DNA of 62,801 bases, filler included, from Folioceros fuciformis (taxonomy: Eukaryota), in the NCBI GenBank assembly GCA_049999805.1. It is 6 parts of 6 records of this genome, joined end to end, with 100 filler letters (N's around TTAATTAATTAA, not from the genome) between each part and the next. Parts side by side here need not be neighbours in the genome. Positions count along the whole stretch, not along the records: positions 1 to 14,532 come from JBNGIO010004414.1; 5 more parts are not named here. One strand, given 5' to 3'. Positions 984 through 56,871 of the stretch are shown here, piece by piece (position 1 is the first letter of the stretch; each line of letters starts with the position of its first letter). A model generated the notes under the pieces. It searched no databases and had not been told where the DNA came from. It saw nothing but the letters and a program-made list of their open reading frames with translations. A program made the translations under genes and the position numbers.

Positions 984-2777
984 CTAGAGCCTCCGCGACT
1001 GCAATGGCATCGATGCGTCCGCAAGAAGAGCCTGGGCGGCTCGCTTGCCCGAGACTAGGGCGCCATGGTGGGTGGCATGGTCCCGGTGGTCACCGCACAC
1101 GTACAGCTTGTCGCCCAGCCTCACCTCGCGGGCGATGTCGGTGGGAGCGTCCTGATTGGGTTGTCCGTACACTATCTTGTAGCTGCGCAGAAACTTCCAT
1201 GGCTGAACCACGGACGCCCCGAACCAGCCCGCGAGCTCCTGCTTCACCGCTTCCTCCAGCCCCTCCTTGTCCCAGTCCGCGGCCCCCAGCCTCAAGGACA
1301 CGCTTACCAGGCATTTGCCGGGGGGCGCATACGATGGGGCGACGTTGGACACCGCCACCACGCTGTTCACGACACCGTTCCTGGATCCGTTGAGGTAGAG
1401 CAGCGGTCCGGCGTACGGGGCCTCGTCTGCGGAGTAGTAGAGCGTGATGGAGTTCCGGGGCGGCCGAGTCACAGGGGCGCTCGGCGGGAGCGCGTCTCCC
1501 AAGAGACGGGCTGCCTCGGGGCCCTCTACTGCGATCACCACCCCATGCCGGCTTCTGACAATGCTTCCGTTCTCGAGCTTCACGCCCGGGGTTCCGTCCA
1601 GCAGGAGGGCGGAGGCCCGGGAACTGAACCGGATAGCGCCCGCCGGTAGCCGCTCCGCGAGCTGCTGCGGGATGGCCCCCATCCCCTCTGCGGGAAGCAC
1701 ATTTCTGCCCACCGCGAAAGTGCGGAAGATGAACTGGTAGAGGCGGGACGAGGTGCTGAGCTCGTAGTCGAAGAAGACTCCTCCGAAGAAGGGACGGTAG
1801 AAGGCGTCGATCATGGACTGGGAGAACCCCTCCCGTTTGAGACGCTGGAGGGTGGGTTCCTCGTCCGCGTCATTCAGAATGTCTTCCGCGGACCGGGAGG
1901 AAGCTTTCAGCCTGCGTGTGAAGAGTGGGCGAGGAAGAGTTGTTAGGTCCCTTCCAAAGAAACAAAGGGAAGGCAAGCAAAGCTTGAGTGAGGATGGCGT
2001 GTTTTGGGAGTAGAGGTAGTACCTCACGTTGCATACCAGGAGCTTGTCCAGCAGCGAGCCCACGGGGTTGAAGATGGAGAGGATGGAGTCCACAGGATGG
2101 CGCAAGGGGTCGGCCAGGCGGTGGAAGCCGTCGTCCAGCCTCACCATGGCTCCGGCGTAGAACTTCTGGAGGTTCAAGGCCTCGTAGTCCAACACCTCCT
2201 GCGTCTCAGGGTAGCCGGAGAGGAGTAGCTGGAATCCGCGGTCCAGCTTGAACCCCTGGTGGAGGTCGGTGCGCACTCTGCCCCCGACGCCGTCCGAGGC
2301 TTCCAGGAGCAAGAAGGGAACGTCGGCCTGCGACAGCACACGGGCTGCAGCCAGCCCCGCCAGGCCTGCTCCCACGATTACCACCCCAGTCTCCTCTTCC
2401 AGGCCTTTTTCCGCATCGCTGCTGCTCCCTGCGCTGCTGGGCCTGTCGTCTGTGGACACAGCCGCGGCCCTGGTGGTGTGGGCCTTCCGCACTCGCCAGC
2501 ATTGCGCCGCTTCAGGTGCGGTTGGTCTCACTGCGTTCAGTCCGGGCTTGCTTTGGAGTAGGAAATGGACTTCGGATTTGATGCTGGCAGACTTAGGCTG
2601 CCCCTTGTCCACGGACTTGGGGGCGAGGTGAGTGCCGGCATAGCAGGCTGGGCTGGAGAGCAACATCCTAGCCTGGCCAAACTCGCTGTGAGTCACACGC
2701 GATCCGGGGCTCTGCTGGCATATAAACCTACTCTGCACTGTCGCTATCTCAGCCTTCAGCTTTGTGAGGAAATACAT
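984..2777 (-). CDS. FAD-dependent oxidoreductase, amine oxidase family, probably plastid-targeted; two exons
   Basis: Rossmann motif VVIVGAGLAGLAAA..LLEASDGVGGRVRT, DRGFQ, and C-terminal LYVCGDHR..HGALVSGKRAA. An in-frame 111-nt GT-AG intron is predicted at 2022-1912. The N-terminal extension is transit-peptide-like; the true start may be the Met near 2665. Confidence 0.9.
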   Translation of the reverse strand: MYFLTKLKAEIATVQSRFICQQSPGSRVTHSEFGQARMLLSSPACYAGTHLAPKSVDKGQPKSASIKSEVHFLLQSKPGLNAVRPTAPEAAQCWRVRKAHTTRAAAVSTDDRPSSAGSSSDAEKGLEEETGVVIVGAGLAGLAAARVLSQADVPFLLLEASDGVGGRVRTDLHQGFKLDRGFQLLLSGYPETQEVLDYEALNLQKFYAGAMVRLDDGFHRLADPLRHPVDSILSIFNPVGSLLDKLLVCNVRYYLYSQNTPSSLKLCLPSLCFFGRDLTTLPRPLFTRRLKASSRSAEDILNDADEEPTLQRLKREGFSQSMIDAFYRPFFGGVFFDYELSTSSRLYQFIFRTFAVGRNVLPAEGMGAIPQQLAERLPAGAIRFSSRASALLLDGTPGVKLENGSIVRSRHGVVIAVEGPEAARLLGDALPPSAPVTRPPRNSITLYYSADEAPYAGPLLYLNGSRNGVVNSVVAVSNVAPSYAPPGKCLVSVSLRLGAADWDKEGLEEAVKQELAGWFGASVVQPWKFLRSYKIVYGQPNQDAPTDIAREVRLGDKLYVCGDHRDHATHHGALVSGKRAAQALLADASMPLQSRRL

Positions 2778-3362
2778 GCAGATGCCGTCATCCTCGGTCG
2801 TGGAGATGCAGATACCGTCGCAGCAAGATTACTTCATCCACTTGCTCCCTAGAACAGATTAGGGGCGCGTGATTCCCGCATATTGAGGATGTATGACCTC
2901 GTCGCTCGCGCTCCATTTCCATCAACGAGGAGGGGTAGCATGCACACGCCCCAGTGCTCCAGACATTAACTTTTCAAGATGGTCTTCTGAACTGGACCAG
3001 TAGGAGGAAGCTTCCCGCGCGCCGCTGTTGAATGGATAATGCTCTGCCTGGATGTCCGAGTGCATCGGTGGGGTGCACCTTTCACCAGTATAGGTACAAT
3101 TGCACTCATGAGCCTGTTGCAAAAGCAGGCCAACAAACCTGCCACAGGGCTACGAGTACGGTCTAGGCGATCGATTGATAAGGCTTACACGGAAAGATCT
3201 GGTGTCATTATCCGTCGTGTGTGTGTCTCGGATTTCCCTTCCCCAAGAGGCGCAAGTGGCCCCTGGCAGATGACAACTGACATGGGCTCTGGGAATCGAT
3301 GACCTTCGTCGTTGCCAACTTCTTATGACCTCTCCCTTACCGTTGTCACCAATACCTTGAGG

Positions 3363-4869
3363 CTACACTATCACCTTCTGGGCCTTCAGCAAAGAAGATT
3401 TGACGCTCGCAGAGAGCTCCCACCCCTTTGCCGCCATCTTCTGGTACATGCTGCCGGCCTCTTCAGAGAGGTTCCCCACCAGCAGGCCCTGGATGAGTCT
3501 GTTGTACGCTCCCTCATCTACTTCCATCCGGGCGTCGTTCATAACCTGCAAAATGTCTCTGACTTTTTCCAACTGGCCTGAACGGGCATATACCTCGTAC
3601 ATGTTTGTCGCCACTCTGGGAGTAAGTCGGAAGCCTCTATTGAGGTAATCCCGGTACACCTCCTCGGTTTCTGTCACCAGGCCGTATCTTGCCAAGTAGC
3701 CCATCAAGGTTGTGAGGGATTCTGGACCAGGCCTAATGCGAGCCTTCTCCAAATCCATCATTAGCTGCACAGCCATTTCGATTGTACCTGCCTTCTCGTA
3801 AGCCACAATCATTCGGCTGATAAGTCTGTCATCGGGGACCAGGGCTACATCCAGCAGCAGCTGGAAGGTCTTGACTGCACCTTCAGCATGGCCTGCTTTT
3901 GTGTAAGAATCTATAAGAGCCGTGAAGGCTTTCAGGGAGGGCCTCACTCCGTTCACCTGCATCAGGTTGAACACTCTCTCTGCTGCGATTGCTGCCCCAG
4001 CCCTTCCGTAAGCTGAGATCAGGGCAGTGAAGGCATCTCCGTTCATCAGTTCAGGAGAAGCCGTCACCAAGGCCTCCGCTTCTGCAGGCAAACTCGCGAG
4101 TCCATATGCCACTATCAAGGCTGTCAAAGCCTTGCTGTCCGGCTTGAGCCCAGCCTTCCTAATCTGCTCGTAGGCATCCCTAGCGCGATCTACCAGGCCA
4201 AGCCTACCATACAAACTTATCAGAACAGTGTACGTGACCACGTCTGGTGCAAATCCAGACTCCAGCATTTCCTTCATAACGTTCTCTGCCTCATCCAATC
4301 TCTCCAGCTTGCCATATTTGTCGACAAGCTTCGTATAGTCCCGTGCGCAGACTTCGAAGCCCTGCTCATCCAGAGCAAAATGGAAGACCTGCGGTACAAT
4401 CAGCAACAAAATGAGCGTCTGTCATCAAGCTCGTTTTCTTCCTAAACGAGCGTTGCATTGTGACAAACACCTTGAAGTAGAGATCACGGTCTCGGAAGTT
4501 GTCGAACTGTATCAGCAAGTCCAGCCAGTCCCGCCTTCGGGGACTCATGCCCCGCACCCAACGCCGAAGAACCTCCCAAATGGATTGCTCGTCCAGAGAT
4601 GACCGAAGTTCCCGAGTGACGAGCCTGGCCCTGTTGGTTACCCTACCCTCGACGGTAGTCTCGTTTCTCCAGAACTTTCTCGTAGAAGCCAGCACCTTGA
4701 CACTGCGATCCTTTGAAGCATTTCGTAGGCTAGTTGTTCCCCATGACGACGTTGATAGTGAGCAAGACAGAAGGCCTGTCTCTAAAGCTTTGGGCAAATC
4801 CCTTTGGCCAGGTGATGTCCCGACCATGCGTGTTGTTGCAGCCCGAAGACATGAACCGCATGCTGCCAT
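3363..4869 (-). CDS. P-class pentatricopeptide repeat protein (resembles At1g01970); two exons
   Basis: Tandem 35-aa P motifs (PDVVTYTVLISLYGRLG, PSLKAFTALIDSYTKAG). Exon 1 is 4869-4471, the intron is 4470-4389 (GT..AG) and exon 2 runs to the stop at 3363. Confidence 0.88.
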
Positions 4870-5145
4870 GTTGAACTGAGAACCTGGCGTTGGCTACGTT
4901 CTTCCATTGCAGTGTGTGAAGAAGGTGAATCTCTGCTGCCCTAATGGCCGGAATCTGTCAGCATGCATGGGGTTTCCATCTGCTGCGCTCCAGAAGGGTA
5001 GTGTCCGCCTACTCGCCGGAATCTGACAGCATGCGGGGAGATTGCATCTGCTGCGCTCCCGGAATGTAGTGTCAGCTTTGCTGTTATGTGTGTCGAGGGT
5101 AGCAGCTAAAAAGGAGACCTTGGAACAGCGTTGTTTCTTCAAACA

Positions 5146-8100
5146 ATGGCATCCGCGTGTTACAACAACAACTGTGCCTCGTTCTCCTTTTCTGCTCAGA
5201 AATTACCGACCCCGAAGCACGGAAGAGGTGTCAGCACCGTCGTCCATGTTACAGCATTAGAGAACCGTCATACAAGTGCAGATAAGGCAATGGAAGTGGA
5301 GAGGCTCTGGGAACAGCTGTTCTCCAATCCTGCTGAATGGTGGGACAACAGAGCAGGCAAGGTGCGATCTTGTTCGTTTCTTCGGGCTCTCCTCATTCAT
5401 GCGCCGGTCCTTTGGATGCTCGAATGCGAGAACGATGTTGATTACTCTGATATTTTGCTCTCTGTGCAGAATCATAGGAAAGTTCCTGACTTTCGACACA
5501 AAGTCTCCAAGGAAGGCTTGTGGGTTGATTGTGAGCTGAATCCCAGCTGGGTCCCATCGAAGTTGGCTTCCTTTTACAGAGATAAACATCAGGGCTCGTC
5601 TTGCAAAGGTCTGCAACATCTGTTCATATTCTCATGTCAGGGATGCAGACAATCCAGAATGCGGTCTTTACGGGAATTTGTTGTCATCCCCGGACTTGGT
5701 TCATGACAGGTGTTGACGAGCATACACCAGAAAGGGAAAGTCTTTCCCGGCCATACTACTCCTCAGGATGCTCTCAGAATACAGACCGGATACCCCGTTC
5801 CGAGTCCAGGAGTGCAAGGAGCCAAGAAGAACTCCGGGATGAAGTGACAACTTTGCCAAATGGTCGTGCTTTTGGAGTCGAGAATTCATCACGTACCGGG
5901 TTAGTGGATCACCTAATCAGTAACATCACTTAGGTTGTGGTGATTTGAAGCTGCGGAAAAGCATAGCATCAGATTGTCATCCAGAGTTTACATGCCAGTC
6001 AACATTATCTGTCAACTGTTGTCACTGACAGGTCAAACACTGGGGCTGCATCAATGTCAACACAGGTCGCAGGACAATCTGGTATTGAAGAACTTGTGTA
6101 GGGACGGACGACTGAAGGAAGCAATTGCTGCATTGCAGCGGATGCACCAGCAGGACAGAATGCCTTCGGTTGAAGCTTACAGCCACGTTTTGCAGGGGTG
6201 CATGAAGATGAAGGCTCTAGCTGAGGGCAAGCAGCTACATGACTTGATCGTGAAAGTTGACTTGGAATTGAACAGCATTATTGGCCCCTCGGTTGTGAAC
6301 ATGTTCATAGAATGTGGGAGCCTCTCAGATGCGGCCCACGTCTTCAACAGCCTGTCCCAACGTACGACTTCCTCCTACATGGCAATCATCTTGGGTTATG
6401 TGAAGTGTGGAGCTGAACTCAAGGCTTTGAACATGTACCAGCGAATGGTGCAGGAAGGGGTGGAACCAAACAGATCAATCTTTGTGAGCCTACTGAAAGC
6501 CTGTGGCAACTCATCAAATCTGGAACTCGGGAAAAAAATTCATGCTGACGTCAACAGAAGTCGTTGTGCAGCCGACGTGTTTGTGGGTACGGCTTTGGTG
6601 TGCATGTATGCCAAATGTGGTCGCATGATGGATGCCAGACGTGTGTTCAGCACATCTTACAAGCGCGATGTGGCGTGCTGGAATGCAATGATTGCTGGGT
6701 ATGCTCAGCAAGCACAGAATGAACAGGCATTGCAAATATATTTTCAGATGCAACGTGACGGTGTTATACCAAATCTTCGCACCTATGTTAGTGTATTGAA
6801 GGCATGTGGTGGCCTGGCATCAACAGGGCCCCATGACCAAGTGGTTAAGCTGGATTGCCTCCAGAAGGGAAAACAGATTCACAGTGAAGTTGTCAGGAGG
6901 GGTTTTGCAACAAATATTTTTGTGGCTACCACCCTGATTAGCATGTATGCAAACTGTGGGAGCACGCTGGACGCATGTTCTGTATTTGACACTCTGCCCC
7001 AGCGTGATGCGGTAATTTGGAATACTATGATAGGCTGTTTCATTCAGGAGGACCAAAGTGAAGAGGCTCTGCAACTTTTTGGCAAAATGAAAGACGCGGG
7101 TGTCCCTGCGAGTAGTAGAACCTATGTCAATGTACTCAGAGCATGTGGCAGCCTGGGAATCAAGGAAGATGGCATTGCGACCCATGGGACATTAGTGAAG
7201 CCGGACTCCCTGCAAAGAGGAAGGGAACTGCATGCTGAGATTGTTGAGGCAGGCTGTGCGCTGGATGCAAACATTGGCAGCAGTTTGATTGATATGTATG
7301 CGAAGTGTGGGAGCATGACAGATGCACAGCAGGTATTTGAAACATTGCCAGAAACAAATGTGGCAGCATGGACTGGAATGATCACTGGTTACAGGCAACA
7401 AAAGGACATCAACCGGGCTTTGCAATTGTACGCAAAAATGCTGGAGAAAGGTATTGTGCCAAATAATCGGACTTTTGTGACCGTGCTGAAGGCATGCAGC
7501 AGTCTGGCTGCCGTGGAAGAAGAGCTGGTTATAGATGGGGAACGAGTTAAGCCAAAATCTCTTGCAAAGGGCCAGGAGATCCACGAGGAGATCGTCAGGA
7601 GAGGGTATGCATCGGACACGGTTGTTGGAAATATTCTTGCTGCCATGTATGCAAACTGTGGATGCATGAAGAGCGCACAGCAGGTGTTTGACGCGTTATG
7701 CCACCGTGATGTTGGATCATGGAATGCAATGATCATTGGATATGCTCATCAAGATCGTGGGGAGCAAGCTTTGCAACTATATTCCAAAATGCAAAATGAA
7801 GGTGTTATGCCCGATAGTTGGACCTTTGTGAATTTGCTCACTGCATGTGGTACAATGGGAGCATTGGAAGGGGCCACTGCAGTTGATGGTGTCTATGTGA
7901 AAGCACAATGTTTGAGAAAGGTGATGGAGATACATAAGGAAGCGTCCGGAGCTGGGTTTGAAACAAATGCGTTTGTTGGTGCCACGCTTATAGACAGGTA
8001 TGCGACCTGTGGGAGCATGATGGATGCACAGCAGGTCTTTGACAGGTTTCCGCAGCGTAGTGTGGTGGCGTGGACAGCAATTATTGGAGGATACGCCCAA

Positions 8101-10794
8101 CAAGCACAAGGTGACACAGCCTTGCACCTGTTTTACCGGATGCAGGAGGAAGGGGTAAAACCAAACAACCGAACGTTTGCTTGTGCTGTAAAAGCATGCA
8201 GCAGTTTAGCAGACTTGGAAGAGTCTACTGTTGTAAATGGAGCACACGTTAAGATAAAAAGCTTGCGAAAGGGTGAAAGGTTGTATACTTACATTTTAAA
8301 TTCTCTTGATCAATTTGATACGGTGGTTGGTAATGCCCTTGTTGACATGTTTGTAAAATGTGGGAGCATGGACAGAGCAGAGCAGGTTTTTGAGACCATG
8401 CCAGCTCGCAATGTTGGGACATGGACAGCAATGGTGGCAGGATATGCTCAGCAGGAACTAAATCTCAAGGCTTTGCAACTGTATAGTCGAATGCAGGATG
8501 AGGGTGTGCAGCCAAACCATCGGACCATTGTTTTTGCTCTGAAAGCTTGTGGTGCCCTGGCAGCCAAAGAAGGAGCCACAAATGTGTGTGGAGAACTGAT
8601 GAAACTAGATTGCTTACAACAAGGGAGACGAATACATGCTGATAGTATTAATGCTGGTTGCGAGTCAGATGCATTTGTTGGTGCAACGCTTGTTGACATG
8701 TATTCAAACTGTGGCAGTTTGGTGGAGGCCCGTCATGTTTTTGACAGAATGACGGACCGGGGAGTGGTGGCGTGGACAGCAATGATAGCAGGGTATGCCC
8801 AGCGTGCGCAGGGTGAGAAGGCTTTGCAATTGTATCAGCAAATGCGGGATGAAGGTGTTAAGCCAAATAGTCGGACCTTTGTGTGCACCCTCAAAGCTTG
8901 TGTTAATTTAGCAGAAGTAGGAGAGTCGATGCCTGTGGAAGGAGAGCTACCTATAGAACGGGCCCTTAGGATGGGCAAAGAGATACACTCTGACATCAAT
9001 GAGAGGGGCCTGGAAATGGACCCGTTTGTTTCTGCCAGCCTGGTTCAAATGTATGCAAGCTGTGGGCGCATGCTGGAAGCGCAGCGTGTTTTTGACGCAT
9101 TGCCCAGCCGCGATGTCGCAATGTGGACAGCGATGATTGCAGGATATGCTCAACAGGGGAAAGGTGAGAAAGCCATCCTATTGTACGAAAGGATGGGGAA
9201 GGAAGGCGTCCCTCCAGACACATGGACTTTAGTCAGTGCACTAAAAGCTTGTTGCAGGCTTGCAGGCAAGGATCAGGCTTCTGTTGTGGATGAACAATGT
9301 ATCAAGACAGTGTGCCTGCAAAAGGGTAAGGAGCTACATGAGGAGGTTATCCGGAGGGGTTTTGGGCTGGATTTGTTTGTTGGTGCCAGTCTCGTCAGCA
9401 TGTATGCGAGCTGTGGAAGCATGGAAGATGCACAGCGAGTATTTGACTCGTTGCAGCAGCATGATGTGGTGTTGTGGACAGCAATGATAGGAGGATATGC
9501 CCACTGTGGAGAAGGTGAGAGAGCTTTGCAGCTATATACACAAATGCAAGAGGAAGGACACAGACCAAACAACAGGACGTTTGTGAGCTTACTGAAAGCA
9601 TGTGGCAGCTTGGCAGTCAAAGAGCAAGCTACCCTAGTGAATGGACGATCGATGAAACTAGGAAGCCTGGACAAGGGACGGGCAATTCATGCCGAGATTG
9701 TGGAAACTGGCGTAGAGCTGGACATGTTTGTGGCCACTACTCTTGTCGATATGTACGCAAAATGTGGTAGCATGGTGGATGCACATCGGGCTTTTGACTC
9801 CCTGACCACGAGAGACGTCGTGTCATGGACAGCCATGATTGCAGGATATGCTGATCTAGAGCAGGGCGAGCGGGCTGTTGAATTGTACCGTCAGATGCAA
9901 GAGGAGGGTGTGAGGCCAAGTCAGGCAACATACCTGAGCACCCTCCAAGCATGCAGCTGCGCAGGAGCGCTCGAAATATGTTCCGAAATCCATCAGGATC
10001 TCATCCACAGCGGACTGGGTACCAATGCCAGGCTTGCAACCTCTCTGATCAATGCATATGCAAAATGCGGCAGCATGGTGGATGCTCAACACGTCTTCGA
10101 CACGTTCCGACAGCAATCTTCCGGACAGCACGATGTGTGCTCTTGGACTGCGCTTATAGCAGGGTACGCTCGTCAGGGCAGCGGTCTCCTGAGCTTGGAG
10201 TGCTTGAACCAAATGCAACAGGCAGGGATCAGGCCAGACGGAGTGACAGCCTTGTCCGTACTTGCAGCCTGCAGCCACGCAGGCCTGGTGGACGAGGGCT
10301 TGGAGTACTTCGAGTCATTGAGCAAACACGACACCACCACCCTAACAGTCGACCACTACACCTGCCTGGTGGACCTCCTGGGACGCGCAGGACTCTTCAA
10401 CAAATTGGAGCAGCTGCTGCTCCTAATGCCCATGCAGCCTAACATCGCCCTGTGGCTCTGTCTTCTAGGCGCCTGCCAGAAACACAACAACCTGGAGCTG
10501 GGACGTCGGGCCTTCGAAGAAGCACTCCTCCTCGATCCAGCACAGTCGGCCCCGTACCTCCTCATGTCCAACATCTACGGCAGAGCAGGCATGTGGGAGC
10601 AGGCCAGAAAAATCGACTATCAACGGAGAGCCGCAGGTGCGTGGAAGCAGCCAGGCTTGAGCTGGGTGGAACACGGAGGCCAAGTGCACACGTTTGGAGC
10701 TAACGATACCCAAAACACCGAAACACCAAAGGTGCTGGCCAGGTTGAAGGAGCTGGACGAGGGGATAAACCGCCAAGTACAGGTTGGCGGTTAA
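5146..10794 (+). CDS. PLS-class PPR RNA-editing factor (LL motifs, E1-E2-E+, no DYW) with predicted upstream exons encoding a transit peptide and an OSB-type PDF motif
   Basis: The 5974-10794 ORF has repeated P-L-S triplets, P2-L2-S2 (VLAACSHAGLVDEG), E1/E2 and a PG box (KQPGLSWVE), then stops. Predicted exons 5146-5361, 5470-5608 and 5710-~5899 join in frame by GT-AG introns. The PPR body is certain; the 5' exon model is inferred. Confidence 0.9.
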
Positions 10795-10915
10795 TCCGGT
10801 TATTGTTCCGAGTCCGCGGACTGCGTCCCAACGGTTTTGTCGCACGAGTCGGACGCGCAACGGTTACGTTCGCGCGGCCTGGGAACGCCAACAACGCTTG
10901 CAGAAACGCGCCACG

Positions 10916-10946
10916 GGAAGGAAGGAAGGAAGGAAGGAAGGAAAGG
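10916..10946. repeat. (GGAA)n microsatellite
   Basis: ggaaggaaggaagg... lies between the PPR stop and the next ATG. Confidence 0.85.
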
Positions 10947-10976
10947 CGTAGCTGCTGATCGTCGCGGGGTGCGAGA

Positions 10977-12263
10977 ATGTGGCAGGGGGTGCGGAACCAG
11001 GCGGCGGTGGCGTGCTTTGAGTACGCTCGGGAAGCCGGGCTGATCCCGGGCCAGGTTGCGGACAATAAGATCAAGACGTGGGTTCCCGACACACTGAAGG
11101 CGGAGCTGGTGGCCTACGTCCTGCAATGGCACCGGGCGCTGCCGCTGCGCGGAATAATCATCGGGCAGTCCCCGACATCGTGCGACAAGGGCAGCCCAAG
11201 CACCACTGAGACGGCCCCGCATCTGGCCGCCAGCTTGGCCTTCCGGGAAGGAGTGGAGCCGCCGGCGGCGTCCGACATCCTGGTCAACGAATTTCGCCTC
11301 TGCGGGAAGGACGGGGCGGAACCTTTAGAGGCTGTGCGGGACTGCTGGAAGCTGGTGGATCACGGCGTGTTGTCGGTGCACGCGCTGCCGCTGGGCATGG
11401 AGAACCGTTTCGACTGGTCCCCAGCCACGGAGAGCGACACGGCGCAGATGCAGGCCTTGGCGCGGGTGCTGTGCCATCTCGTGTCTCTGAGCGCGGAGAT
11501 GGGACCCCGCGGGAGCACACGGGTGGTGGCCATGGGGCGATGGGCGCACGACGTGGCTTCGGAGCTACGGCGCCAGTTCACCGAGCGGCTGCAGGCCGGG
11601 CAGAGCAAGTTCTGGACGCTGGACATCCGCGGGTCCCTGTCGCATCCCATCCGCACCTGGCACAAGTTCCACTCACGCACCCCGGACCACATCACTATGG
11701 GCCGCGAGGAGGACCTGCTCGCGCTCTACGACCTCTTCGTGTCCGGGAAGCCCCAGCAGCAGGGCAGCCAGCACCTCAACGGAAACGGAGCCGGGAACGG
11801 TAACGGGCACTGGCACCCCCCCGTTCCGTCTCTCCCCGACAGGTGCTCCACTCCCGCGCCGGAGCCGAGAANNNNNNNNNNNNNNNNNNNNNNNNNNNNN
11901 NNNNNNNNNNNNNNNNNNNNNNNNNNNNNNNNNNNNNNNNNNNNNNNNNNNNNNNNNNNNNNNNNNNNNNNCGGCGGCATCGGGAGCGTGCGCTCCAGCT
12001 TCACCTTCGGCAGCTCCCCGGCGGATAGCTGCAACATAATCGGCTATGGCGGCGGCCTGATCAAGCCGCCTGAGGACTCGCACTCTCAGTCGCAACCGCA
12101 TGTCCTCAAGGAGCTCCAAATCGAGAGCAACATCAGCAACCTGGGCCTGAATGGATCCACCGGGGCCAACTCCGTGTGGCCGGAGCGCGGCCTCAAACCC
12201 AGGGTCGACCGCGCCTCGCCCGTCTTCCGAGGCGACCTGCAATCTCCAGCCCGCCACTGGTGA
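10977..12263 (+). CDS. Orphan GC-rich ORF with a divergent uracil-DNA glycosylase (UNG/UDG superfamily)-like motif order; interrupted by an assembly gap
   Basis: About 298 open codons precede the gap at 11872-11971. Motifs occur in UNG order: GIIIGQSP, ASLAF..GVEPP, DHGVLSVH, VVAMGRWA, SHP. Frame continuity across the gap cannot be verified. Confidence 0.5.
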   Translation: MWQGVRNQAAVACFEYAREAGLIPGQVADNKIKTWVPDTLKAELVAYVLQWHRALPLRGIIIGQSPTSCDKGSPSTTETAPHLAASLAFREGVEPPAASDILVNEFRLCGKDGAEPLEAVRDCWKLVDHGVLSVHALPLGMENRFDWSPATESDTAQMQALARVLCHLVSLSAEMGPRGSTRVVAMGRWAHDVASELRRQFTERLQAGQSKFWTLDIRGSLSHPIRTWHKFHSRTPDHITMGREEDLLALYDLFVSGKPQQQGSQHLNGNGAGNGNGHWHPPVPSLPDRCSTPAPEPRXXXXXXXXXXXXXXXXXXXXXXXXXXXXXXXXXXGGIGSVRSSFTFGSSPADSCNIIGYGGGLIKPPEDSHSQSQPHVLKELQIESNISNLGLNGSTGANSVWPERGLKPRVDRASPVFRGDLQSPARHW

Positions 12264-21369: not shown

Positions 21370-22795
21370 CGCTCCGACTGTCTGATGTCTCAGCACGTCA
21401 CATCAGGCTGGAGAAAGCGGGGAAGGTAACAGGCCAACGGAACAGAATCGAAGTCACCAATCACTACCGCTAACAATTGTTTGGGATGAATCAGCCTCAG
21501 AATCTGCTGGAACCGACAACATCGGGTGCCTCGCTAGGGCTTTTTAGGGCCACCTTGCCAAATCGGTAGGGGAATTCGCGGATTTCACTGCCGACGCCAG
21601 TGTGTCAATCAATCCTCGGGGTTATCGGGATCTTTAGTCACGGCGGCACAGATTTGCGCTCAGGTTGAGTGCACATGTATGTAGTGTCTGAAGCTGCCTG
21701 GCACACATCCAGACGCCTGCGCTGTCTCGGCAAGTTTTTGGGGGCCACGAGAACCAGACAGCCCGAGGTGGCAAGGTTACAATCTCAGTACATACAGTAC
21801 GCATGTATGCGTCTGCCTCTCTCCTCCTTGCATGCCGCTGCGCCTCCTGATCCGCCGCCCTCCGGCACAGTATGTCTGCCCTCATCTGAGCACCGGCAAA
21901 GCGTCCTCAGCCTTGCTTGCCTTGACGATTAGCATTTGGCTCCAGCTTTCTCTTGCGGCTTCTTTTCCCTACTCCAGTCTTTTCTGGCGTGAACCGCCAA
22001 TCCGGAAACGTGTCTCAAAGGGAAGATTTCTTGCGCAACAATCTTCGTTTTGTCGCTCTTCGAGTTGGTAGGTGAATCCCTTTTCAGTCCTCGCAACGGT
22101 GAGGCCCTATCTCTTGCCCCCTGTGCTACCTTCCGGTGAACCGCGATTTGTCCGAGGAAAAATTGGTGCACGGGATCTTTCCTCTACTGTCTCTGCAGCT
22201 CTCGCGGCGGTGAATTCTCCTCGTTCTATGCATCCATTTCTTGAATTGAGGTTATGCACAGCTTGGTTGCACAGAAGTTGCAGGTGCCAATGCTGGAATG
22301 ATTAGGGTGGACCTCGCACTCTGCTGAAGATACGATTTTCCGTATGTCTGTTTGCTATCCATAGCTTTAGTCATTCAGACGTCGTGGGAGACATCGATCT
22401 GAAGGGGTCGACTTCGGATTCATGTCTGATTCTGTGATCCGAGAGCCACCTTGAGCACGTCCCGGAATGGATTTGTGAGTCTCTGCCATGATGGTTGGAG
22501 ACAGTTGAGCGCGCGAGTTATCACCCCTTACTGTTTGAAGAGTTACATGCTGGTAATCCAAACACATCCCAGTTGATTTTTTCTCATCCAAACCGTCCTA
22601 GATCGGTCGAGGATGCCTTGGAGCACAGGACAGTAGTCCCTGTCGGGGCTCCCCCACCAGCTTGGACACAGGCACGGCATAGAATCTGGGTACGGTCGAC
22701 TTGTCCGCCGACATTGTACTTACCAGACAGCCTTCCATATCAATAGGGTGACACTACGTTTTCTCCTGCAGTTGACCTGGTAGGAACTTGGAACC

Positions 22796-25700
22796 ATGGA
22801 TGACTTCGAGAAGGCTATTCTATTTACTTTTGATCAGACTGGTGCAGTGGATGCACAGCTCAAGGCACAGGCCATGGCCTATTGTGAACGGGCTAAGCAG
22901 TCCCCAACCATTTGGCAAGCATGTCTCGACAGATTTAGATGCTCGCAGTTTCCAGAAGTCCAGTTTTGGTGCTTGCAGACATTGGAAGAGACGGCAAAGC
23001 AAAGATACGCAGGTTTATCGCCTCCTGAGCGAATGTTCGTACGATCGTCGCTAATGGGAGCTGTTTGCACGGTGAATGCAGACGCTCAGTCACCACAATC
23101 GGCAGATGCAGGAGAGGTCATGCTTGCTAGACCTGTCTTTGTCAGGAACAAACTATCCCAGATAATTGTTATTCTCATCTTCCTGGACTACCCTTCAGAG
23201 TGGTCCTCTGTCTTCCTCGACGTGCTTGCTTGTCTGAACCAGGGACCGGGAGTTGTGGATATGTTCTGTCGCATACTGATCACTTTGGATGAAGAGGTTA
23301 TTAGCTTGGACTACCCTAAGGATGCTGGCAAATTTTCTGCTGCCACTCGTATAAAGGATGCGATGCGCCTGCAGTGTATCCCTGAGATTGTGAGTGCTTG
23401 GTACAGCCTTGCCGTCGCTTATAAGAGACAAACTCCTTCTCTAGTGGTATCTGTGCTTGAAGTTATGCGCAGATATGTGTCCTGGATTGATATCTCTTTG
23501 GTTGCCAATGAAAAGTTCATCCCCCTGCTTTTCGAATTTCTAGCTTCCGGCAGTGAACCTCCACAGCTCCGCGGAGCTGCTGCCGACTGCTTGTTGGCCA
23601 TAGTCTCAAAGAGAATGGATGCAGCTGCTAAGCTTACTTTGCTTAAGCAATTGCAGATAGGGCAGGTTTGCAGTCGCATCATGCAAGCGCAGGAACCAGA
23701 CTTTGCCCTTAAGCTCACATCTTTGCTGACAGGGCTAGCCACAGAAGTACTCGAGTGCAGCAAGAAAATAACTATAAATGGCACGGAGACAGTGGAACTT
23801 GTCACAGCCCTTCTGGATGATGTGCTGCCATCTGTATTTTACTTCATGAAGCATGGCGATGAAGAAATATCCTCTGCGACGGTTCAGTTTCTGTCTAGTT
23901 ATGTTCTGAGGATGAGAACTGCAGACTCTTCAATGAACGGGAAGCAGACTCTCTATATCGGTGAGATATTAGAGGTTATTCGGATTCGGATGCGTTTCGA
24001 TCCAGAGAGCAAAGATTCTTTAGATGTTCCAGATAAAGATGGGGTAGAAGAAGAGGAGAGGATGACAGAGTACCGGAAGGACTTGTTTTCCTTGTTTAGG
24101 TGCATCTATCGTGTTGCTCCTGATTTCACACGAGCTTTTGTGCAGACCTCCCTAACCTCAGCTATTTCAAATCCTGAGACTCCATTTGAGGACGTTGAAG
24201 CAGCGATCACGTTGCTTTATGTTCTTGGGGAGGGTGTCGGAGAAGATGCATTGAAGCCTGGTGGGGGGCCACTTGTAGATATGATTGGAGCTATATTATC
24301 TCGCCCAGTGCCGTGTCATTCTCATCGACTAGTCGGACTGGCTTGTTTAGAAACAGTAACAAGATATGTCCGGTTCCTGCAGCACCATCCACAATATCTT
24401 CCTTCAGTTCTTTCAGCTTTTCTTGACTCGAGGGGGTTTCAGCATCCAAACCCGAACGTAAGCAACCGAGCAGGGTACCTTTTTATGCGCCTGGTGAAGA
24501 CAATGCGGTTACAGATGGTCCCCTACATTGAAGATATCCTTCAGGTAGTAAATCTGTTCATAGCCTTTTTGCATGTTGTCGGGAAGGATGTCATTTTGTC
24601 ACATTTTACGGCAACTCGGAAATCCTGATCAAATGTTCCTCTAGCATTTTTCGCAGAACTTGGAATCTACTTTGAAGCTGACCACCAGCACTCAAGATGA
24701 TGTTCTATCCCCAGACCGAAGCTATGTCTTTGAGGTGAGATGAGCAGTTGGCCTTCATGGGACTATGTGCTGATACATACAGCCTGCTTGAAGGGGCCCT
24801 ATCAATATGCAAACGTGATGTACTTTCTTCTACCGTCCGAGAGCTCATCAGCTTATACTTTTCTGTGTTGCCTTCAAAACGCTGTAGGCAATTGGGTTGC
24901 TACTTGGGATGGAGGAGCTGCCTGTAGAGAAGCAGTCAACATTCTTATCGGCGCTGTTGCTGTCCTTGTGCGGGCAGGTACCATGAACACAGTTTGGGGG
25001 GCATTTTGAAGGCATGATTGTCATTTCTTGGGATCAGAAAGACATTTCGGCCCTGTCATTTCGTTCTTTGCTCTATGTTCCCAGGTGGATGCCATTATTG
25101 GGAGAGAGTCTCAGCGAGGAGATCCTTCACCTTCAACTGTAGCTGCATTGCAGCAGCTTATTTTGGCCATCAGCCATTTGAGCAAGGTATCTACAATAGT
25201 TGGATATCAGTTCATTCTGTTGCTTCGCACTCAACGCTAATCACTTCTAGTAATTGTTCCTTTTAAATGGTGAATTTTTGGTTGGCCGTACAGGGTTTTC
25301 GTGGGCACATTTCTTCCACTGTGAGGCCTGTGCTTGGCGGCATGTTCAAGCAGGTTGTGTTCGTCTCATATACGCCTGCAAATGGTTGTGTTTACTGGTA
25401 CCTATCAACATGTACTAATGCACGAGGATGTCTCTTTTGTGCTCAGACCATAGAAGTGGTGCTGCGTGTTCTCATCGCGTTCCCAAGAATCAAGGACCTT
25501 CGTAGTAAGGTATATGTGCTTGCTGTCGTCCTTGGCTATGGAAGCTTGTTCAAGAAGATACGACGTTGGCATTGAATTGGACCAGTGAGTAGTGATACCA
25601 GTTTGATTTTCTAGGTTGTTTCGTTTTTACATCAAATGGTGGAAACTCTTGGCGGTGAAGTGTTTCCTTTCCTTCCTACAGCTATGGAGCAGCTACTGGC

Positions 25701-34604: not shown

Positions 34605-35522
34605 TCAGTGCCACTTATCAGTGCGCACCCAGTTGGTTCTGAATTTCCATTCGCTCAGGAGGTAGACCCCATTCTCAGCCTGCGGAACTCTGGAAGAGAA
34701 ACCCACAGTGGACTTTTCGTTCACATGGTCCGACAGCTTGAGGCCAGAGTAGGTGAGCATCAGCTTGGCCAACTTCTTATTAGGCTGCTCGGTGCCGTTG
34801 AGGATCCGCAGGCGCACAGCCAGATACTCCCTCTTGGCATCGTAGTCGATGAACACTGCAATGCGGCGGTCCACGAAAAGCTCCACGTCCCCTAGAGATG
34901 TCTCAACCACGGAGTTGACGCTGTTGATGTCCAGCCCGAGGTGCGGAATGGCGGGGTCCCAGGCGAACTCCCGCGAAGTGTCGATCTCCACGGCCACAGT
35001 CCTGCTCTTTTTGGGGTTTAAGGGGTTCCCGGTGGCTGTATCTATCTCAAACAATCCCAGGCTCTCGCGGCCGCTATTCCCCACGTCCTGATTGGGAGTA
35101 ATGGCGAAGGCAAAGCCTCCCCCGAACGAATTGAAGATCCCGCTCTCCACCCAGTCGCCGCTCCGCTGGAACTTTATCACGTACGAGGTGGAGAAGGAGA
35201 CGGAGTAGGGGCTGTTCTTCTTGTACAGCCGCACCTTCTTGTTGTAGGCGTACCTCACGGATACCACATCGTCGTAGCCGAAGACGATCTCTGGAGGCGG
35301 GCTAGAGCTCGGCGTGCAGATGGCCGCGGCTGTCGCGCCGACCGACCCGGCGAAGCTGCAGTTGAGGGCGGACATGAAGGGGGGGAAGGACAGGTTCACC
35401 CCTTTCAGGCCGACGCCGTTCCCCTTCCCGTGAACCCGCCCGTTGGCCTCCGCCCCCTGGACCGCGCCCGCTGTCAAGAGCAATGTCACCACGAGCAGCA
35501 GCCTGTGCATGTTCCACTCCAT
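34605..35522 (-). CDS. Secreted legume (L-type) lectin domain protein, intronless, no kinase domain
   Basis: Signal peptide (RLLLVVTLLLTAGAVQG), SFSTSY, GGGFAFAITP, TVAVEIDT, HLGLDINSVNS, VFIDYDA, VGFS and W-x-F. Confidence 0.88.
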   Translation of the reverse strand: MEWNMHRLLLVVTLLLTAGAVQGAEANGRVHGKGNGVGLKGVNLSFPPFMSALNCSFAGSVGATAAAICTPSSSPPPEIVFGYDDVVSVRYAYNKKVRLYKKNSPYSVSFSTSYVIKFQRSGDWVESGIFNSFGGGFAFAITPNQDVGNSGRESLGLFEIDTATGNPLNPKKSRTVAVEIDTSREFAWDPAIPHLGLDINSVNSVVETSLGDVELFVDRRIAVFIDYDAKREYLAVRLRILNGTEQPNKKLAKLMLTYSGLKLSDHVNEKSTVGFSSRVPQAENGVYLLSEWKFRTNWVRTDKWH

Positions 35523-36069
35523 CTGACCCCTTGTAGCCCACCCGGTACTAAATGTTGAATGAATCTATTGAAAACTCTAGACCTCTGGGCCTGCACTTGC
35601 AGCAGCCTGAGGAAGGGGATGCAAGGCCGTGGCCCGCGCAGAGTGGATGACAATCGTGACGTCTTGAAAAAATCGGATGGCACGTACCCCACTGCACGCT
35701 CCTCTGCCCACGGACACTGGCACACGAGGCTTGTCCGCCGCTGGGGGTTTATACCTCCTGCAAATCGGATGTCCATCCTTGACCGGGTTCTCGAGGCTGT
35801 GGAGAGCCAGCTCATGGCGAGTTGACCAGCCGGTGCCCGATCTCTCACCTCCGGAGCCTACTTGGAGGTACGGCCATTGGTATGAGCCAAGAGCCGTCCG
35901 GAACTGCGCTTTCCCTACTTCAGCACAGCCCTTAGGCAGGGTGTCATTTTGACCGAGTACTAGCTCAGTCCGGGGCCCTCTAGCCTGGCTATGCCGGGAC
36001 CGAGCAGGGACCGTGCCTTTTTGCGACCCTTGGTCACTAAATATAATAAATAGTAAATAAATTATTTAT

Positions 36070-55191: not shown

Positions 55192-56871
55192 GGGTAAAGC
55201 ACCTCAGCCCCCAGGTAGTGGTCCACCTCCACCTCCTGGGTTTGCTCTTCCTCCTCCAGGAAAATTTGGAAAAGGTGGCCCAGCATTGTCAGTACAGTTA
55301 CCTCCGGAACAGACACCAGCAGCCAAGCTGAAACCTTTGCACTGGGAGAAGATAAAAGCGAATCCTGGTCACTCGATGGTGTGGGATAGACTTCGAACTG
55401 GCTCTTTCTCGTGAGTGCAGTCCTATCTCCAGGGTCTTGTATACTTTCATTCTGTTCTTTTTTGTCAAGTGTTTTGACAGCATCATGTGAAATTTGTCCT
55501 TGCAGGCTAGATGAGGAAATGATGGAATCTCTATTCGGCTTCAAACCTGCTGCTGCTACAAGTTCGGCGCCATCCAAGCCAAGCAAGGCAGAAAAGCCAG
55601 CCACTGTCTCTCTTATAGATGCAAGGAAAGCTCAAAATATCGCTATTCAACTGAAAGCTTTGGGCCTAACCAAAAATGATGTCATTGATGGACTGCTTGA
55701 AGGTTAGTAGTGGTACTCCTGGTTCTACTGTCTGGATGTGGACGTACGCTCTCCGCCTAACATGAACTGTCTGTATTTAGGGACTGGGCTAGCCCCAGAC
55801 ATTTTGGAAATCCTGGTGAAGATGGCTCCTGCGGATGATGAAGTGAAAAAGCTTAAGGGATTTCAAGGCGATGTGTCAACTCTTGGACCTGCCGACAGGT
55901 TCCTCAAAGCACTCCTTGAGATTCCTTGTGCATTTCAACGGTTTCGAGCTATGCTTTACCGCTCATCGTATGAGGAGGAGGTCTCTCAAGTGCAGAAAGC
56001 AATCCGTGTACTGGAGGTGGGATTTATGCTCATTGCATGTGAAGAGCTTGATGTGACTGGGCATAAGGTTGTGACTCGTCCATTATATTTTGACTGAGAA
56101 CTTTGATTCATTCTGCTGCAGCTTGCAAGCCTGGAGCTTCGAAACAGTAGCACTTTTGAGAAGCTGCTAGAAGCAGTGTTAAAGACTGGAAATCGAATGA
56201 ACATGGGGACATACCGGGGTGGTGCGACCGCATTCAAGCTGGACTCCCTTTTGAAACTATCAGATGTGAAAGGTACAGATGGGAAAACTACTCTACTCCA
56301 GTTTGTCCTACAGGAGATAATGCGGAAGGAAAGTGCACGGGCATCAGAGGAAGGCACGCCAAGGTCACAGCCATCCACACCATCGGCTGCTTTCACTCCC
56401 AAATTGTCTGGTGGAGGTTCAGAGAGTCATAAGCATATGGGCTCAAAAGTGGTTCTGAATCTTAGCTCAGAGCTTGCGAATGTCAAAAGGGCTGCAGCAC
56501 TAGACACGGATTCGTTGAAGAATTCCGGCCAAAAGTTGGTGAATGGATGTGAGCAGACCCAGCATCTGCTAAGTCAAATTGCAAGTCAGCTACAGGGGAG
56601 CACTGGTGAGGACACAAGCTATGACCCGTCAGAAGATGTGTTTGACAGGAACATGAAGGACTTCGTGGATAAAGTGGACAGTGAGGTTAAGAAGCTCGTG
56701 GAGGACCTGAATGCAGCTTTTGAGGGTGCTAAAAGGGTGAATAGATACTTCAACGGCCAGACGCCCACTGATGACAAGCAACCTCTGAAGGTGTTCCAAG
56801 TAGTGAGTGATTTCCTTGTGATGCTGGAGAAGGCCTGCATGGATGTGATGCCACCTGTGAAGAAGTCTTGA
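55192..56871 (+). CDS. Formin (FH1 remnant plus FH2 domain), 5'-truncated; four visible exons
   Basis: Poly-Pro, then KLKPLHWEKI..SMVWD, LDEEMMESLFG, IDARKAQNIAI and LKTGNRMNMGTYRGGATAFKLDSLLKLSDVKGTDGKTTLL. The stop is at 56869-56871. Confidence 0.93.

What the first reader, a model, noticed from the sequence alone, without database searches (positions are those of the whole stretch)
5146..6065. OSB-type PDF ssDNA-binding motif apparently spliced onto the N-terminus of an RNA-editing PPR
Seen: removing the 108-nt GT-AG intron at 5362-5469 gives LWEQLFSNPAEWWDNRAGK|NHRKVPDFRHKVSKEGLWVD, after a transit-peptide-like start (MASACYNNN, ATG 5146). A phase-1 intron at 5609-5709, then either 5900-6065 (phase 2) or 5893-6031 (phase 1), keeps the frame into the PPR array. 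Known: W..F..P..WWDNR..K....PDFKHK....LW is the PDF motif of plant organellar ssDNA-binding OSB proteins. There is no OB/SSB fold here. Inference: a PDF-PPR fusion could tether an editing factor to nucleoid ssDNA or transcription bubbles, coupling editing to transcription. I do not know a functional description of this architecture.
Basis: partly seen in the sequence, partly recalled or inferred. Interest (0 to 1): 0.8.

Follow-up and report, generated by a model that had tools for sequence, protein, structure and literature searches.

The report
OSB-type PDF module upstream of PPR
A plant gene for a long organelle RNA-binding (PPR) protein carries, in small upstream exons, the DNA-binding "PDF" module of organellar OSB proteins; this pairing recurs unnamed in mosses, liverworts and clubmosses, but the only transcript evidence here joins the two parts out of frame.

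Summary
Removing the GT-AG intron 5362-5469 restores a gapless 50-residue PDF motif. It scores 64.8 bits against a profile built only from OSB proteins. It is the only such match in the window.

A spliced contig from a roughly 92%-identical relative lacks all three introns and runs from the PDF exons into the PPR array.

The architecture is not a one-off. 36 database proteins carry one to three N-terminal PDF motifs ahead of a PLS-type PPR array. They include 15 of 27 listed Diphasiastrum proteins, two Sphagnum and one Calypogeia. Eight of the 36 have a DYW deaminase. I found no paper describing this pairing.

The relative's third junction is 5900-6031. That is out of frame with the PPR and gives a 204-residue PDF-only ORF. 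Only an unobserved acceptor at 6065 gives the 1757-residue fusion. So the family-level fusion is well supported (about 0.9), while a fusion protein from this locus is about 0.55.

The protein ends after the E motif and has no deaminase. Tethering to nucleoid ssDNA is untested.

Verdict: a new variant of a known kind; interest 0.6.

The parts
5048..5145 (+). 5' leader (minimum extent). It holds two tiny upstream ORFs: ATG-TAG at 5064-5069 and a 7-codon ORF at 5086-5109.
   Evidence: The relative's contig begins at 5048 (table 8). The sequence was read.
5146..5361 (+). Exon 1 coding part, 72 codons. It holds a transit-peptide-like start (no Asp/Glu in the first 38 residues) and the first half of the PDF motif, including WWDNR.
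   Evidence: Organelle targeting is an inference from composition only.
5305..5562 (+). PDF motif, residues 54-103 of the spliced product, coded by 5305-5361 plus 5470-5562 and interrupted by intron 1.
   Evidence: OSB-only profile: 64.8 bits, gapless, profile positions 2-51 of 52. It is the only hit in the six-frame scan.
5362..5469 (+). Intron 1: GT-AG, 108 nt, phase 0, placed inside the PDF motif directly after the Lys that follows WWDNR.
   Evidence: Absent from the relative's contig. Five database PDF proteins show read-through inserts at the same place.
5470..5608 (+). Exon 2: the second half of the PDF motif (PDFRHK ... LW ... WV) plus a short tail.
5609..5709 (+). Intron 2: GT-AG, 101 nt, phase 1.
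   Evidence: Skipped in the relative's contig.
5710..5899 (+). Exon 3: a Ser/Arg/Glu-rich linker of about 63 codons with no family match.
   Evidence: The relative's two length differences here are +6 and -6 nt, which preserves the frame.
5900..6031 (+). Intron 3 as seen in the relative: GT-AG, 132 nt. This junction puts the PDF frame out of register and gives a stop at 6099-6101 (204-residue ORF).
   Evidence: table 8 (pieces ending at 5898 and starting at 6031, with one ambiguous G). Frame arithmetic.
6032..6065 (+). A 34-nt segment that must also be removed, using the alternative acceptor AG at 6064-6065, for an in-frame PDF-PPR fusion of 1757 residues.
   Evidence: This junction was not observed in any run.
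6067..10482 (+). PLS-class PPR array. Its first motif starts at LCRDGRLKEA. It includes eight tandem PLS triplets at an exact 117-residue period.
   Evidence: Pfam PPR_2 at 567 bits and PPR at 423 bits. Period measured.
10483..10794 (+). E motif, then a short PG-box-like tail and the stop codon at 10792-10794. There is no DYW deaminase.
   Evidence: PF20431 E_motif at 55 bits against a cut-off of 27.3. tblastn with a DYW segment matches only its first 35 residues, at 10651-10755.
10795..10909 (+). 3' untranslated region (minimum extent).
   Evidence: An identical contig of run X1 covers 9018-10909 without a joint.

Best explanation
The locus is a member of a conserved but undescribed family of organellar PLS-class PPR proteins that carry OSB-type PDF modules at the N-terminus.

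**Gene structure.** Three short 5' exons encode a targeting-peptide-like start, one PDF module split by a conserved phase-0 intron, and a linker. One long exon follows, encoding about 14 PLS triplets and an E motif but no deaminase.

**Proposed protein.** Splicing 5900-6065 would give a 1757-residue protein. In it, the PPR array reads a long RNA sequence and the E motif marks it as an editing-type specificity factor that would need a deaminase in trans. The N-terminal PDF sits at the 5' end of the RNA footprint. There it would act as a sequence-independent single-strand nucleic-acid grip, either on RNA upstream of the site or on single-stranded organellar DNA.

**Alternative isoform.** The 5900-6031 isoform seen in a relative would instead yield a 204-residue PDF-only protein. 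The locus may produce both.

**Shown:** the motif, the introns, the joined exons in a relative, and the family architecture in other plants.

**Inferred:** the in-frame isoform, organelle targeting, the editing role, and what the PDF binds in this context.
For: **The motif**
- It matches the OSB-only profile without a gap, and shuffles do not approach its score.
- 240 library hits at E <= 0.001 match only the exon-coded halves.
- Of the best 150 hits, 64 have an SSB-like domain and 15 have a PPR array.

**The family architecture**
- 36 database proteins have a PDF N-terminal to a PPR array.
- They include a complete 564-residue PDF-PPR-E-DYW protein, P0099, and named proteins of Diphasiastrum, Sphagnum and Calypogeia.
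- On a tree of 312 PDF motifs, the PPR-linked ones cluster: 11 label changes against a shuffled mean of 40.0, and 0 of 500 shuffles as low.
- The window's nearest neighbours on that tree are PPR-linked motifs.
- The first-motif signature LC-x-x-G-x-L occurs in 14 of 36 proteins with a PDF and 4 of 98 without. In those 4 it sits at residues 14-32, as expected of truncated gene models. The window has this signature at the start of its PPR exon.

**This locus**
- The relative's contig joins all the exons.
- No in-frame ATG lies between the stop before 5944 and the first PPR motif, except one inside intron 3. A PPR with a targeting peptide therefore needs the upstream exons.
- The PPR ORF of 1575 codons is intact here. 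The relative shows only one compensated +1/-1 pair in it.
Against: - The single observed intron-3 junction (5900-6031) is out of frame with the PPR.
- In run X2, the depth in bins 5028-6097 is fully accounted for by that one contig.
- Contigs cannot prove a single transcript across 6032.
- Run X1, which is identical to the window, covers only parts of 7221-10909 and gives almost nothing over the PDF exons.
- The run kinds are guesses ('RNA?').
- PDF binding is documented for ssDNA in OSB1, known to me only through reviews. It has not been documented in a PPR context.
- No targeting predictor was available.
Confidence: 0.55

Rival explanations
1. This is a decoupled descendant of an ancestral fusion. 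The upstream exons now make a separate 204-residue PDF-only organellar protein (isoform 5900-6031, stop at 6099-6101). The PPR is translated on its own from transcripts that start in or retain intron 3, using the ATG near 5991.
For: - The only junction seen is 5900-6031.
- An in-frame ATG exists inside intron 3, 25 codons before the start of the PPR exon.
- A de Bruijn contig can merge two overlapping transcripts.
- The best library hit, P0001, is a 228-residue protein with two PDF motifs and no other domain.
Against: - The 30 residues from that ATG do not look like a targeting peptide, by eye.
- No contig covers intron 3 in any of the 4 runs.
- 36 homologues keep the PDF and the PPR in one protein.
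- P0001 may itself be a fragment.
Confidence: 0.3
2. The PDF ORF acts mainly as a long upstream ORF or unproductive splice form that sets the level of the PPR. The PDF peptide itself has no function at this locus.
For: - The observed isoform ends in a premature stop followed by 4.7 kb of downstream sequence.
- Two small uORFs already lie in the leader.
Against: - The motif keeps every nearly invariant PDF position of the 57-protein alignment: W, P, W, D, R, K, P, D, F, L, W, P, W.
- Both length changes in exon 3 between the two species are multiples of three.
Confidence: 0.1
3. The resemblance is due to chance, or the gene model is an artefact: unrelated ORF fragments upstream of an ordinary intronless PPR gene.
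For: PLS PPR genes are usually intronless (established knowledge). Pfam has no PDF model, so no curated family call is possible.
Against: - The profile score is 64.8 bits, against at most 10.0 for 200 shuffles.
- It is the only hit in 104,217 six-frame residues.
- Splicing was seen in a relative.
- The intron position is shared with other PDF genes.
Confidence: 0.02

Closest known systems
[quoted passage not shown]
   Same: - It has the same 50-residue PDF module, matched end to end against a profile built only from OSB-type proteins.
- It has the same phase-0 intron position inside the motif as an OSB-type database protein, P0013.
- It has an N-terminal targeting-like region.
- According to two reviews, the PDF motif of OSB1 is responsible for, or sufficient for, ssDNA binding (passages read).
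   Different: - It has no SSB-like or OB-fold domain.
- The PDF lies N-terminal to a different nucleic-acid-binding domain, whereas in OSBs it lies C-terminal to the OB fold.
- The 2026 OSB survey required both domains, so it would have excluded proteins like this one (methods passage).
PLS-class PPR proteins of the E/E+ subgroup (organellar C-to-U editing specificity factors)
   Same: It has tandem P-L-S PPR triplets, an E motif above Pfam's cut-off, and a short PG-box-like tail. The PPR part lies in one exon.
   Different: - It has three 5' introns and an N-terminal PDF module.
- Its triplets are 117 residues long, against about 101-102 (a recalled figure), with a roughly 16-residue insert in the L motif.
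- Its array is very long, about 1575 residues.
- It has no DYW domain.
Unnamed PDF-PPR proteins in public databases, e.g. Diphasiastrum complanatum O6H91_21G032400 (P0108), the Sphagnum jensenii DYW protein (P0179), and P0099
   Same: The domain order is the same: targeting-like start, one to three PDF modules, a linker, then a first PPR motif of the LC-x-x-G-x-L type, a PLS array and an E motif.
   Different: - In those proteins, the PDF and PPR are one continuous ORF in the database record. Here the in-frame junction is unobserved.
- 8 of the 36 carry a DYW domain; this protein does not.
- The best identity to the window's PPR start is only 47%.
PPR proteins with an N-terminal RNA-binding add-on, e.g. 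maize PPR4 (RRM plus PPR)
   Same: It follows the same logic: a general nucleic-acid-binding module ahead of a sequence-specific PPR tract. PPR4 is mentioned in PMC9459714 (passage read), and RRM-PPR fusions are counted in PMC13386178.
   Different: The add-on here is a PDF module, not an RRM. Those proteins are P-class splicing factors, whereas this one is PLS/E class.

Membership tests
OSB (organellar ssDNA-binding protein) family | One or more PDF motifs | tested here: met
   64.8 bits, gapless, against the OSB-only PDF profile. The motif alone scores 73.9 bits, against at most 10.0 for 200 shuffles.
OSB (organellar ssDNA-binding protein) family | SSB-like / OB-fold domain N-terminal to the PDF | tested here: not met
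   Pfam finds no SSB domain on ORF 5146-5706. phmmer with the SSB-like region of P0003 hit 64 database proteins but not the window product.
OSB (organellar ssDNA-binding protein) family | Binds ssDNA in mitochondria or plastids | not testable with these tools
   This needs EMSA and localisation experiments. The claim is known to me only from reviews of OSB1/OSB2.
PLS-class PPR, E/E+ subgroup | Tandem PPR motifs in P-L-S triplets | tested here: met
   Pfam PPR_2 at 567 bits, PPR at 423 bits and PPR_3 at 278 bits. Eight triplets sit at a 117-residue period.
PLS-class PPR, E/E+ subgroup | C-terminal E motif | tested here: met
   PF20431 at 55.0 bits against a cut-off of 27.3, full profile 1-63.
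PLS-class PPR, DYW subgroup | DYW cytidine deaminase domain | tested here: not met
   The stop is at 10792-10794. tblastn with the last 135 residues of P0099 matches only its residues 1-35, and there is no deaminase core anywhere in the window. An identical contig runs unspliced to 10909.
PLS-class PPR editing factor | Specifies a C-to-U (or U-to-C) site in an organelle transcript | not testable with these tools
   No organelle genome or editing data for this organism were available.
PDF-PPR fusion proteins (undescribed; 36 database examples) | PDF exons and PPR on the same strand and in one spliced RNA | tested here: met
   X2 record 10 spans 5048-6622 with the three introns absent. This was seen in a relative, not in the window's own organism.
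PDF-PPR fusion proteins (undescribed; 36 database examples) | PDF and PPR in one continuous reading frame | tested here: inconclusive
   The frame holds only with the 5900-6065 intron, giving 1757 residues. The observed 5900-6031 junction is out of frame.
PDF-PPR fusion proteins (undescribed; 36 database examples) | First PPR motif of the LC-x-x-G-x-L-x-E-A type shortly after the linker | tested here: met
   LCRDGRLKEA sits at the start of the PPR exon. The signature is found in 14 of 36 PDF-bearing and 4 of 98 PDF-less PPR proteins.

The most novel reading that the evidence does not exclude
PDF-PPR proteins are an ancient family, shared by bryophytes and lycophytes, in which an ssDNA-binding module physically couples sequence-specific RNA editing or processing factors to single-stranded organellar DNA. 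That DNA would be the non-template strand of transcription bubbles, R-loops or replication intermediates, so these sites would be handled co-transcriptionally. At this locus, a 34-nt choice of splice acceptor switches output between a free PDF protein and the PDF-PPR fusion.
Probability: 0.2. Interest if true: 0.85.

Novelty: new variant of a known kind. Interest (0 to 1): 0.6.

Why it matters
PPR editing factors and OSB proteins are both well studied, but as separate systems: one handles organellar RNA, the other guards organellar DNA. A recurrent natural fusion of the OSB DNA-binding module to PLS-type PPR arrays has two possible meanings:
- The PDF module may be a general single-strand grip that also works on RNA. 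That would change how OSB biochemistry is read.
- Alternatively, some editing factors may be anchored on organellar DNA. That would make co-transcriptional editing directly testable.

The fusion is present in 15 of the 27 Diphasiastrum proteins listed here, and in mosses and a liverwort.

Because Pfam has no PDF model, domain surveys miss it. Two 2026 surveys, one of OSB genes and one of editing factors, do not mention it. The PDF module also matched no solved fold, so it would be a worthwhile structural target.

Tried and rejected
**Protein and database searches**
- Word-index protein searches with the unspliced 186-residue ORF, at 'longer' and 'near' lengths, gave no hit at E <= 1. The full HMMER scan then found the family.
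- Pfam has no family for the PDF region.
- No whole genome is held for this window.
The sources of P0002, P0099, P0102 and others stay unknown.
- Earlier-findings look-ups by sequence, genome and relatives returned nothing.

**Sequencing runs**
- No RNA holder is listed. All 4 runs are contigs of guessed kind.
- Run X1, which is identical to the window, gave no usable cover of 5028-6097.
- The in-frame 5899/6066 junction was not seen in any run, and neither was intron-3 retention. Table 5 showed only 15 of 115 joints and table 8 only 32 of 859 pieces, so rarer forms may be hidden.

**Structure**
- Foldseek against the PDB gave 0 of 18 matches at E <= 0.001.
- VIA-align wide gave a best Z of 3.8 among 48,161 chains.
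- I rejected the weak top rows, including one for a trypanosome RESC-B RNA-editing complex chain at Z 3.7, as common helical arrangements.

**Literature**
- The terms 'PDF motif' or 'PDF motifs' with PPR or pentatricopeptide returned only a replication review whose PPR mentions concern RNA polymerase.
- 'PDF domain' with pentatricopeptide returned 0 papers.
- 'WWDNR' returned 1 unrelated paper.
- Zaegel et al. 2006 and Gutmann et al. 2020 are not held. A mention there cannot be excluded.
- Supplements were not consulted.

**Other readings rejected**
- The 5893 donor is a poor site and was not the one used in the relative.
- A second PDF copy in the window is excluded.
- A downstream DYW exon is excluded.
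Full report
**1. What is in the sequence**

On the + strand an ATG sits at 5146 in a good context. The ORF that follows runs to 5706 only because it reads through a GT-AG intron (5362-5469, 108 nt) that happens to be open in frame. A second GT-AG interval lies at 5609-5709.

From 5944 a stop-to-stop frame of 1616 codons runs to 10794. Pfam calls it a PPR protein: PPR_2 567 bits, PPR 423 bits, E_motif 55.0 bits against a cut-off of 27.3, and no DYW.

A tblastn with the last 135 residues of a complete DYW protein (P0099) matched only that segment's first 35 residues, at 10651-10755. It found no deaminase core anywhere in the window. The PPR is therefore PLS-class and of E/E+ type.

**2. Is the PDF motif real?**

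Pfam has no PDF model, so I built a test.

- phmmer of the unspliced 186-residue ORF against 1.84 billion representatives gave 240 proteins at E <= 0.001 and 30 at E <= 1e-10. The best was 1.9e-22.
- The matched stretches fall at query residues of about 36-75 and 106-170. These are the end of exon 1 and exon 2, not the intron-coded middle.
- Of the best 150 hits, 64 carry an SSB-like domain. For example, P0003 has Pfam SSB plus three PDF copies. These are OSB-type proteins.
- From those 64 alone I derived a PDF profile with jackhmmer (152 motif copies, 52 positions).
- The window product, joined by coordinates in a script, aligns at residues 54-103 to profile positions 2-51 without a gap, at 64.8 bits.
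- The motif alone scores 73.9 bits, against at most 10.0 for 200 shuffles.
- In a six-frame scan of the window (2473 pieces, 104,217 residues), only ORF 5110-5703 hits (E 2.5e-17, two halves meeting at profile positions 19-21). The next hit has E 0.11.

Splicing at 5361/5470 is therefore exactly what restores an intact motif.

Five database proteins (P0013, P0031, P0033, P0078, P0131) show an insert at the same point. It begins with Val and ends with Gln, as a read-through GT...CAG intron would. P0013 is OSB-type. The phase-0 intron position thus looks shared with OSB genes, which argues for common descent rather than convergence.

**3. Transcript evidence**

No run on record as RNA was listed. 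Four runs of guessed kind were laid as contigs.

*Run X2* comes from a relative that differs at about 6-12% of the letters in each laid piece. One of its contigs (record 10, 1274 nt) lies on 5048-5359, 5468-5610, 5729-5898 and 6031-6622 with adjoining contig coordinates. The exception is 23 unlaid letters after 5610.

- Introns 1, 2 and 3 are all absent from this contig.
- The depth of X2 in every bin from 5028 to 6097 equals what this one contig contributes (my arithmetic on table 2).
- X2 has no cover of the introns or of 4911-5047. That fits RNA, not genomic DNA.
- The upstream contig ends at 4910, so the leader starts between 4911 and 5048.
- I read these joints from table 8. Table 5 showed only 15 of 115 joints.

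The third junction, allowing one ambiguous G, is 5899|6032, which means intron 5900-6031. In the contig, the distance from the codon at 5470 to the PPR codon at 6067 is 364 nt, which is 1 modulo 3. The PDF frame therefore enters the last exon out of register. In the window it stops at 6099-6101, giving a 204-residue ORF.

However, 5893 is a weak donor by eye and was not the one used. The 6065 acceptor has about the same pyrimidine content as 6031 (10 versus 12 of the 20 preceding bases, my count), and a CTGAC branch-like element sits only 3 nt before the 6031 AG. Use of 6065 is therefore plausible, but it was not observed.

*Run X1* is identical to the window. It covers parts of 7221-10909 and ends the transcript beyond 10909. 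It gives nothing useful over the PDF exons.

**4. The architecture elsewhere**

- Of the best 150 PDF hits, 15 also match the window's PPR region.
- Pfam on 18 of the 150 confirmed PPR families in 6, SSB in 2 and kinesin in 1. Nine had no family.
- A search with the first 420 residues of the PPR exon gave 2126 proteins at E <= 1e-20, of which 120 were listed. The best identity was 47%.
- Of the 119 listed proteins that were new, 21 carry a PDF hit N-terminal to the array. That makes 36 database PDF-PPR proteins in all.
- In every one, the PDF motifs precede the PPR array. One protein, P0204, also has a second copy in mid-protein.
- They hold one to three PDF copies. Eight also have a DYW domain, including the complete 564-residue P0099.

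I crossed the names with the hits:

| Source | Proteins with a PDF |
|---|---|
| Diphasiastrum complanatum | 15 of 27 |
| Sphagnum | 2 of 2 |
| Calypogeia fissa | 1 of 1 |
| JGI-named PPR proteins | 2 of 2 (partial motifs at the very start) |
| Cryptomeria | 0 of 18 |
| Adiantum | 0 of 14 |
| Ceratopteris | 0 of 5 |
| Selaginella | 0 of 2 |
| 'Gb_' records | 0 of 5 |

This covers only the best 120 of 2126 hits, and gene models may be truncated. The zeros are therefore weak evidence.

On a FastTree of 312 near-full PDF motifs (140 OSB-type, 42 PPR-linked, 130 other):
- The PPR label needs 11 changes against a shuffled mean of 40.0, with 0 of 500 shuffles as low.
- With PPR against OSB labels only, it needs 4 changes, against 37-41 in the five shuffles printed.
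- The window's nearest rows are PPR-linked motifs, inside a group of 18 PPR-linked rows out of 19, with weak support (73).
- The tree has only 52 columns, so this shows clustering and does not establish a single origin.

The first-motif signature of the window (LCRDGRLKEA) is found in 14 of 36 PDF-bearing and 4 of 98 PDF-less PPR proteins. In those 4 it sits at residues 14-32, as truncated models would show (the rows are kin, so the p-value is only indicative).

**5. How it most likely works**

*Shown:* a true PDF module, a PLS/E PPR array, joined exons in a relative, and a recurrent PDF-PPR protein family.

*Established knowledge:*
- PPR tracts bind RNA in parallel, with the N-terminus at the 5' end.
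- PLS/E proteins are typically editing-site specificity factors. Those without a DYW domain need a deaminase in trans.
- According to two reviews, the PDF motif is responsible for ssDNA binding in OSB1, and OSB1 and OSB2 prefer ssDNA over dsDNA or RNA (the primary paper is not held).

*Inference:* in the fusion protein the PDF would sit at the 5' edge of a footprint of about 40 nt. It would add sequence-independent single-strand binding, either to RNA or to exposed organellar ssDNA.

*Structure:* AlphaFold on a 57-protein alignment folds the module confidently (block pLDDT 89-94 over residues 21-80 of P0043). The fold is a helix, three short strands, then a long helix. Neither Foldseek (no hit at E <= 0.001) nor VIA-align against 48,161 chains (best Z 3.8) found a solved relative. 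Structure therefore gives no functional lead.

**6. Weighing the locus**

For a fusion protein:
- The family norm is a fusion.
- There is no other route to a targeting peptide for the PPR.
- The 1575-codon PPR ORF is intact.
- The exon boundary at 6066 falls just before the first PPR motif.

Against it:
- The only junction seen is out of frame.
- It was the only form assembled in X2.

I put a fusion protein from this locus at about 0.55, possibly alongside the short isoform. I put a decoupled PDF-only gene plus separate PPR at about 0.3, a regulatory or unproductive upstream ORF at about 0.1, and chance at about 0.02. The family-level claim, that PDF-PPR proteins exist and that this gene descends from them, I put at about 0.9.

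**7. Novelty**

Full-text searches found no paper pairing the PDF motif or domain with PPR proteins.
- A 2026 survey of 182 OSB genes kept only proteins with both OB-like and PDF domains. The words 'PPR' and 'pentatricopeptide' occur nowhere in it (passages).
- A 2026 kingdom-wide survey of editing factors lists PPR fusions with MORF, RRM and RanBP2 domains. The terms 'OSB' and 'PDF' occur nowhere in it (passages).
- Zaegel 2006 and Gutmann 2020 could not be read, and supplements were not seen.
- One earlier scan note (e1-560559) concerns an Ostreococcus OSB with a PDF motif. It adds that the module is older than land plants. I did not test it.

The proteins themselves already sit in public databases as 'hypothetical' or plain PPR entries. 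What is new is the recognition of the architecture, not the sequences. Verdict: a new variant of a known kind, interest 0.6.

Noticed in passing
window 7915-10455 (residues 617-1435 of the spliced product, and similar units before): The PLS triplets repeat at an exact 117-residue period, eight times in tandem. This is longer than the roughly 101-102 residues I recall for P1-L1-S1. The extra length comes from a roughly 16-residue acidic/hydrophobic insert in the L motif. Database proteins P0002 and P0102 show the same style.
   Followed up: partly
database proteins P0044, P0005, P0023, P0029, P0036, P0090 (one search list): PDF motifs also occur in other contexts. P0044 is a 1526-residue protein with a kinesin motor and 3 PDF hits. 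Several proteins of 700-1160 residues have 9-11 tandem PDF hits, or 21 matched stretches (P0005), and no Pfam family where I scanned them (P0005, P0023, P0029, P0090; P0036 was not scanned).
   Followed up: partly
window 3363-4893, - strand: A second PPR-coding ORF (3363-4421, PPR_2 125 bits) lies upstream on the opposite strand. An adjoining ORF at 4366-4893 has an ATG near 4867 and a transcript contig end at 4876-4910. The two PPR genes are therefore head to head, about 140-270 nt apart.
   Followed up: partly
window 5064-5109: There are two minimal upstream ORFs in the leader: ATG-TAG at 5064-5069 and a 7-codon ORF at 5086-5109. The second ends directly before the main ORF's frame opens.
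   Followed up: no
window 10918-10946 and 11873-11972: A (GGAA)n microsatellite follows just after the PPR 3' UTR. The read-laying tool skipped 10910-11000 as repeat. A run of N (an assembly gap) lies inside the next ORF, 10959-12263, which starts only about 185 nt after the PPR stop and has no Pfam family.
   Followed up: no
window 8932-8936: The relative's contig has a +1 insertion at 8932 and a -1 deletion at 8936 inside the PPR ORF. This compensated pair leaves the frame intact (table 4).
   Followed up: no
window 984-2828 (-), 22784-24628 (+), 34605-35564 (-), 56107-56871 (+): The neighbouring ORFs are ordinary plant genes: a flavin amine oxidase, exportin-T, a legume-lectin domain protein and a formin FH2 domain protein.
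   Followed up: no
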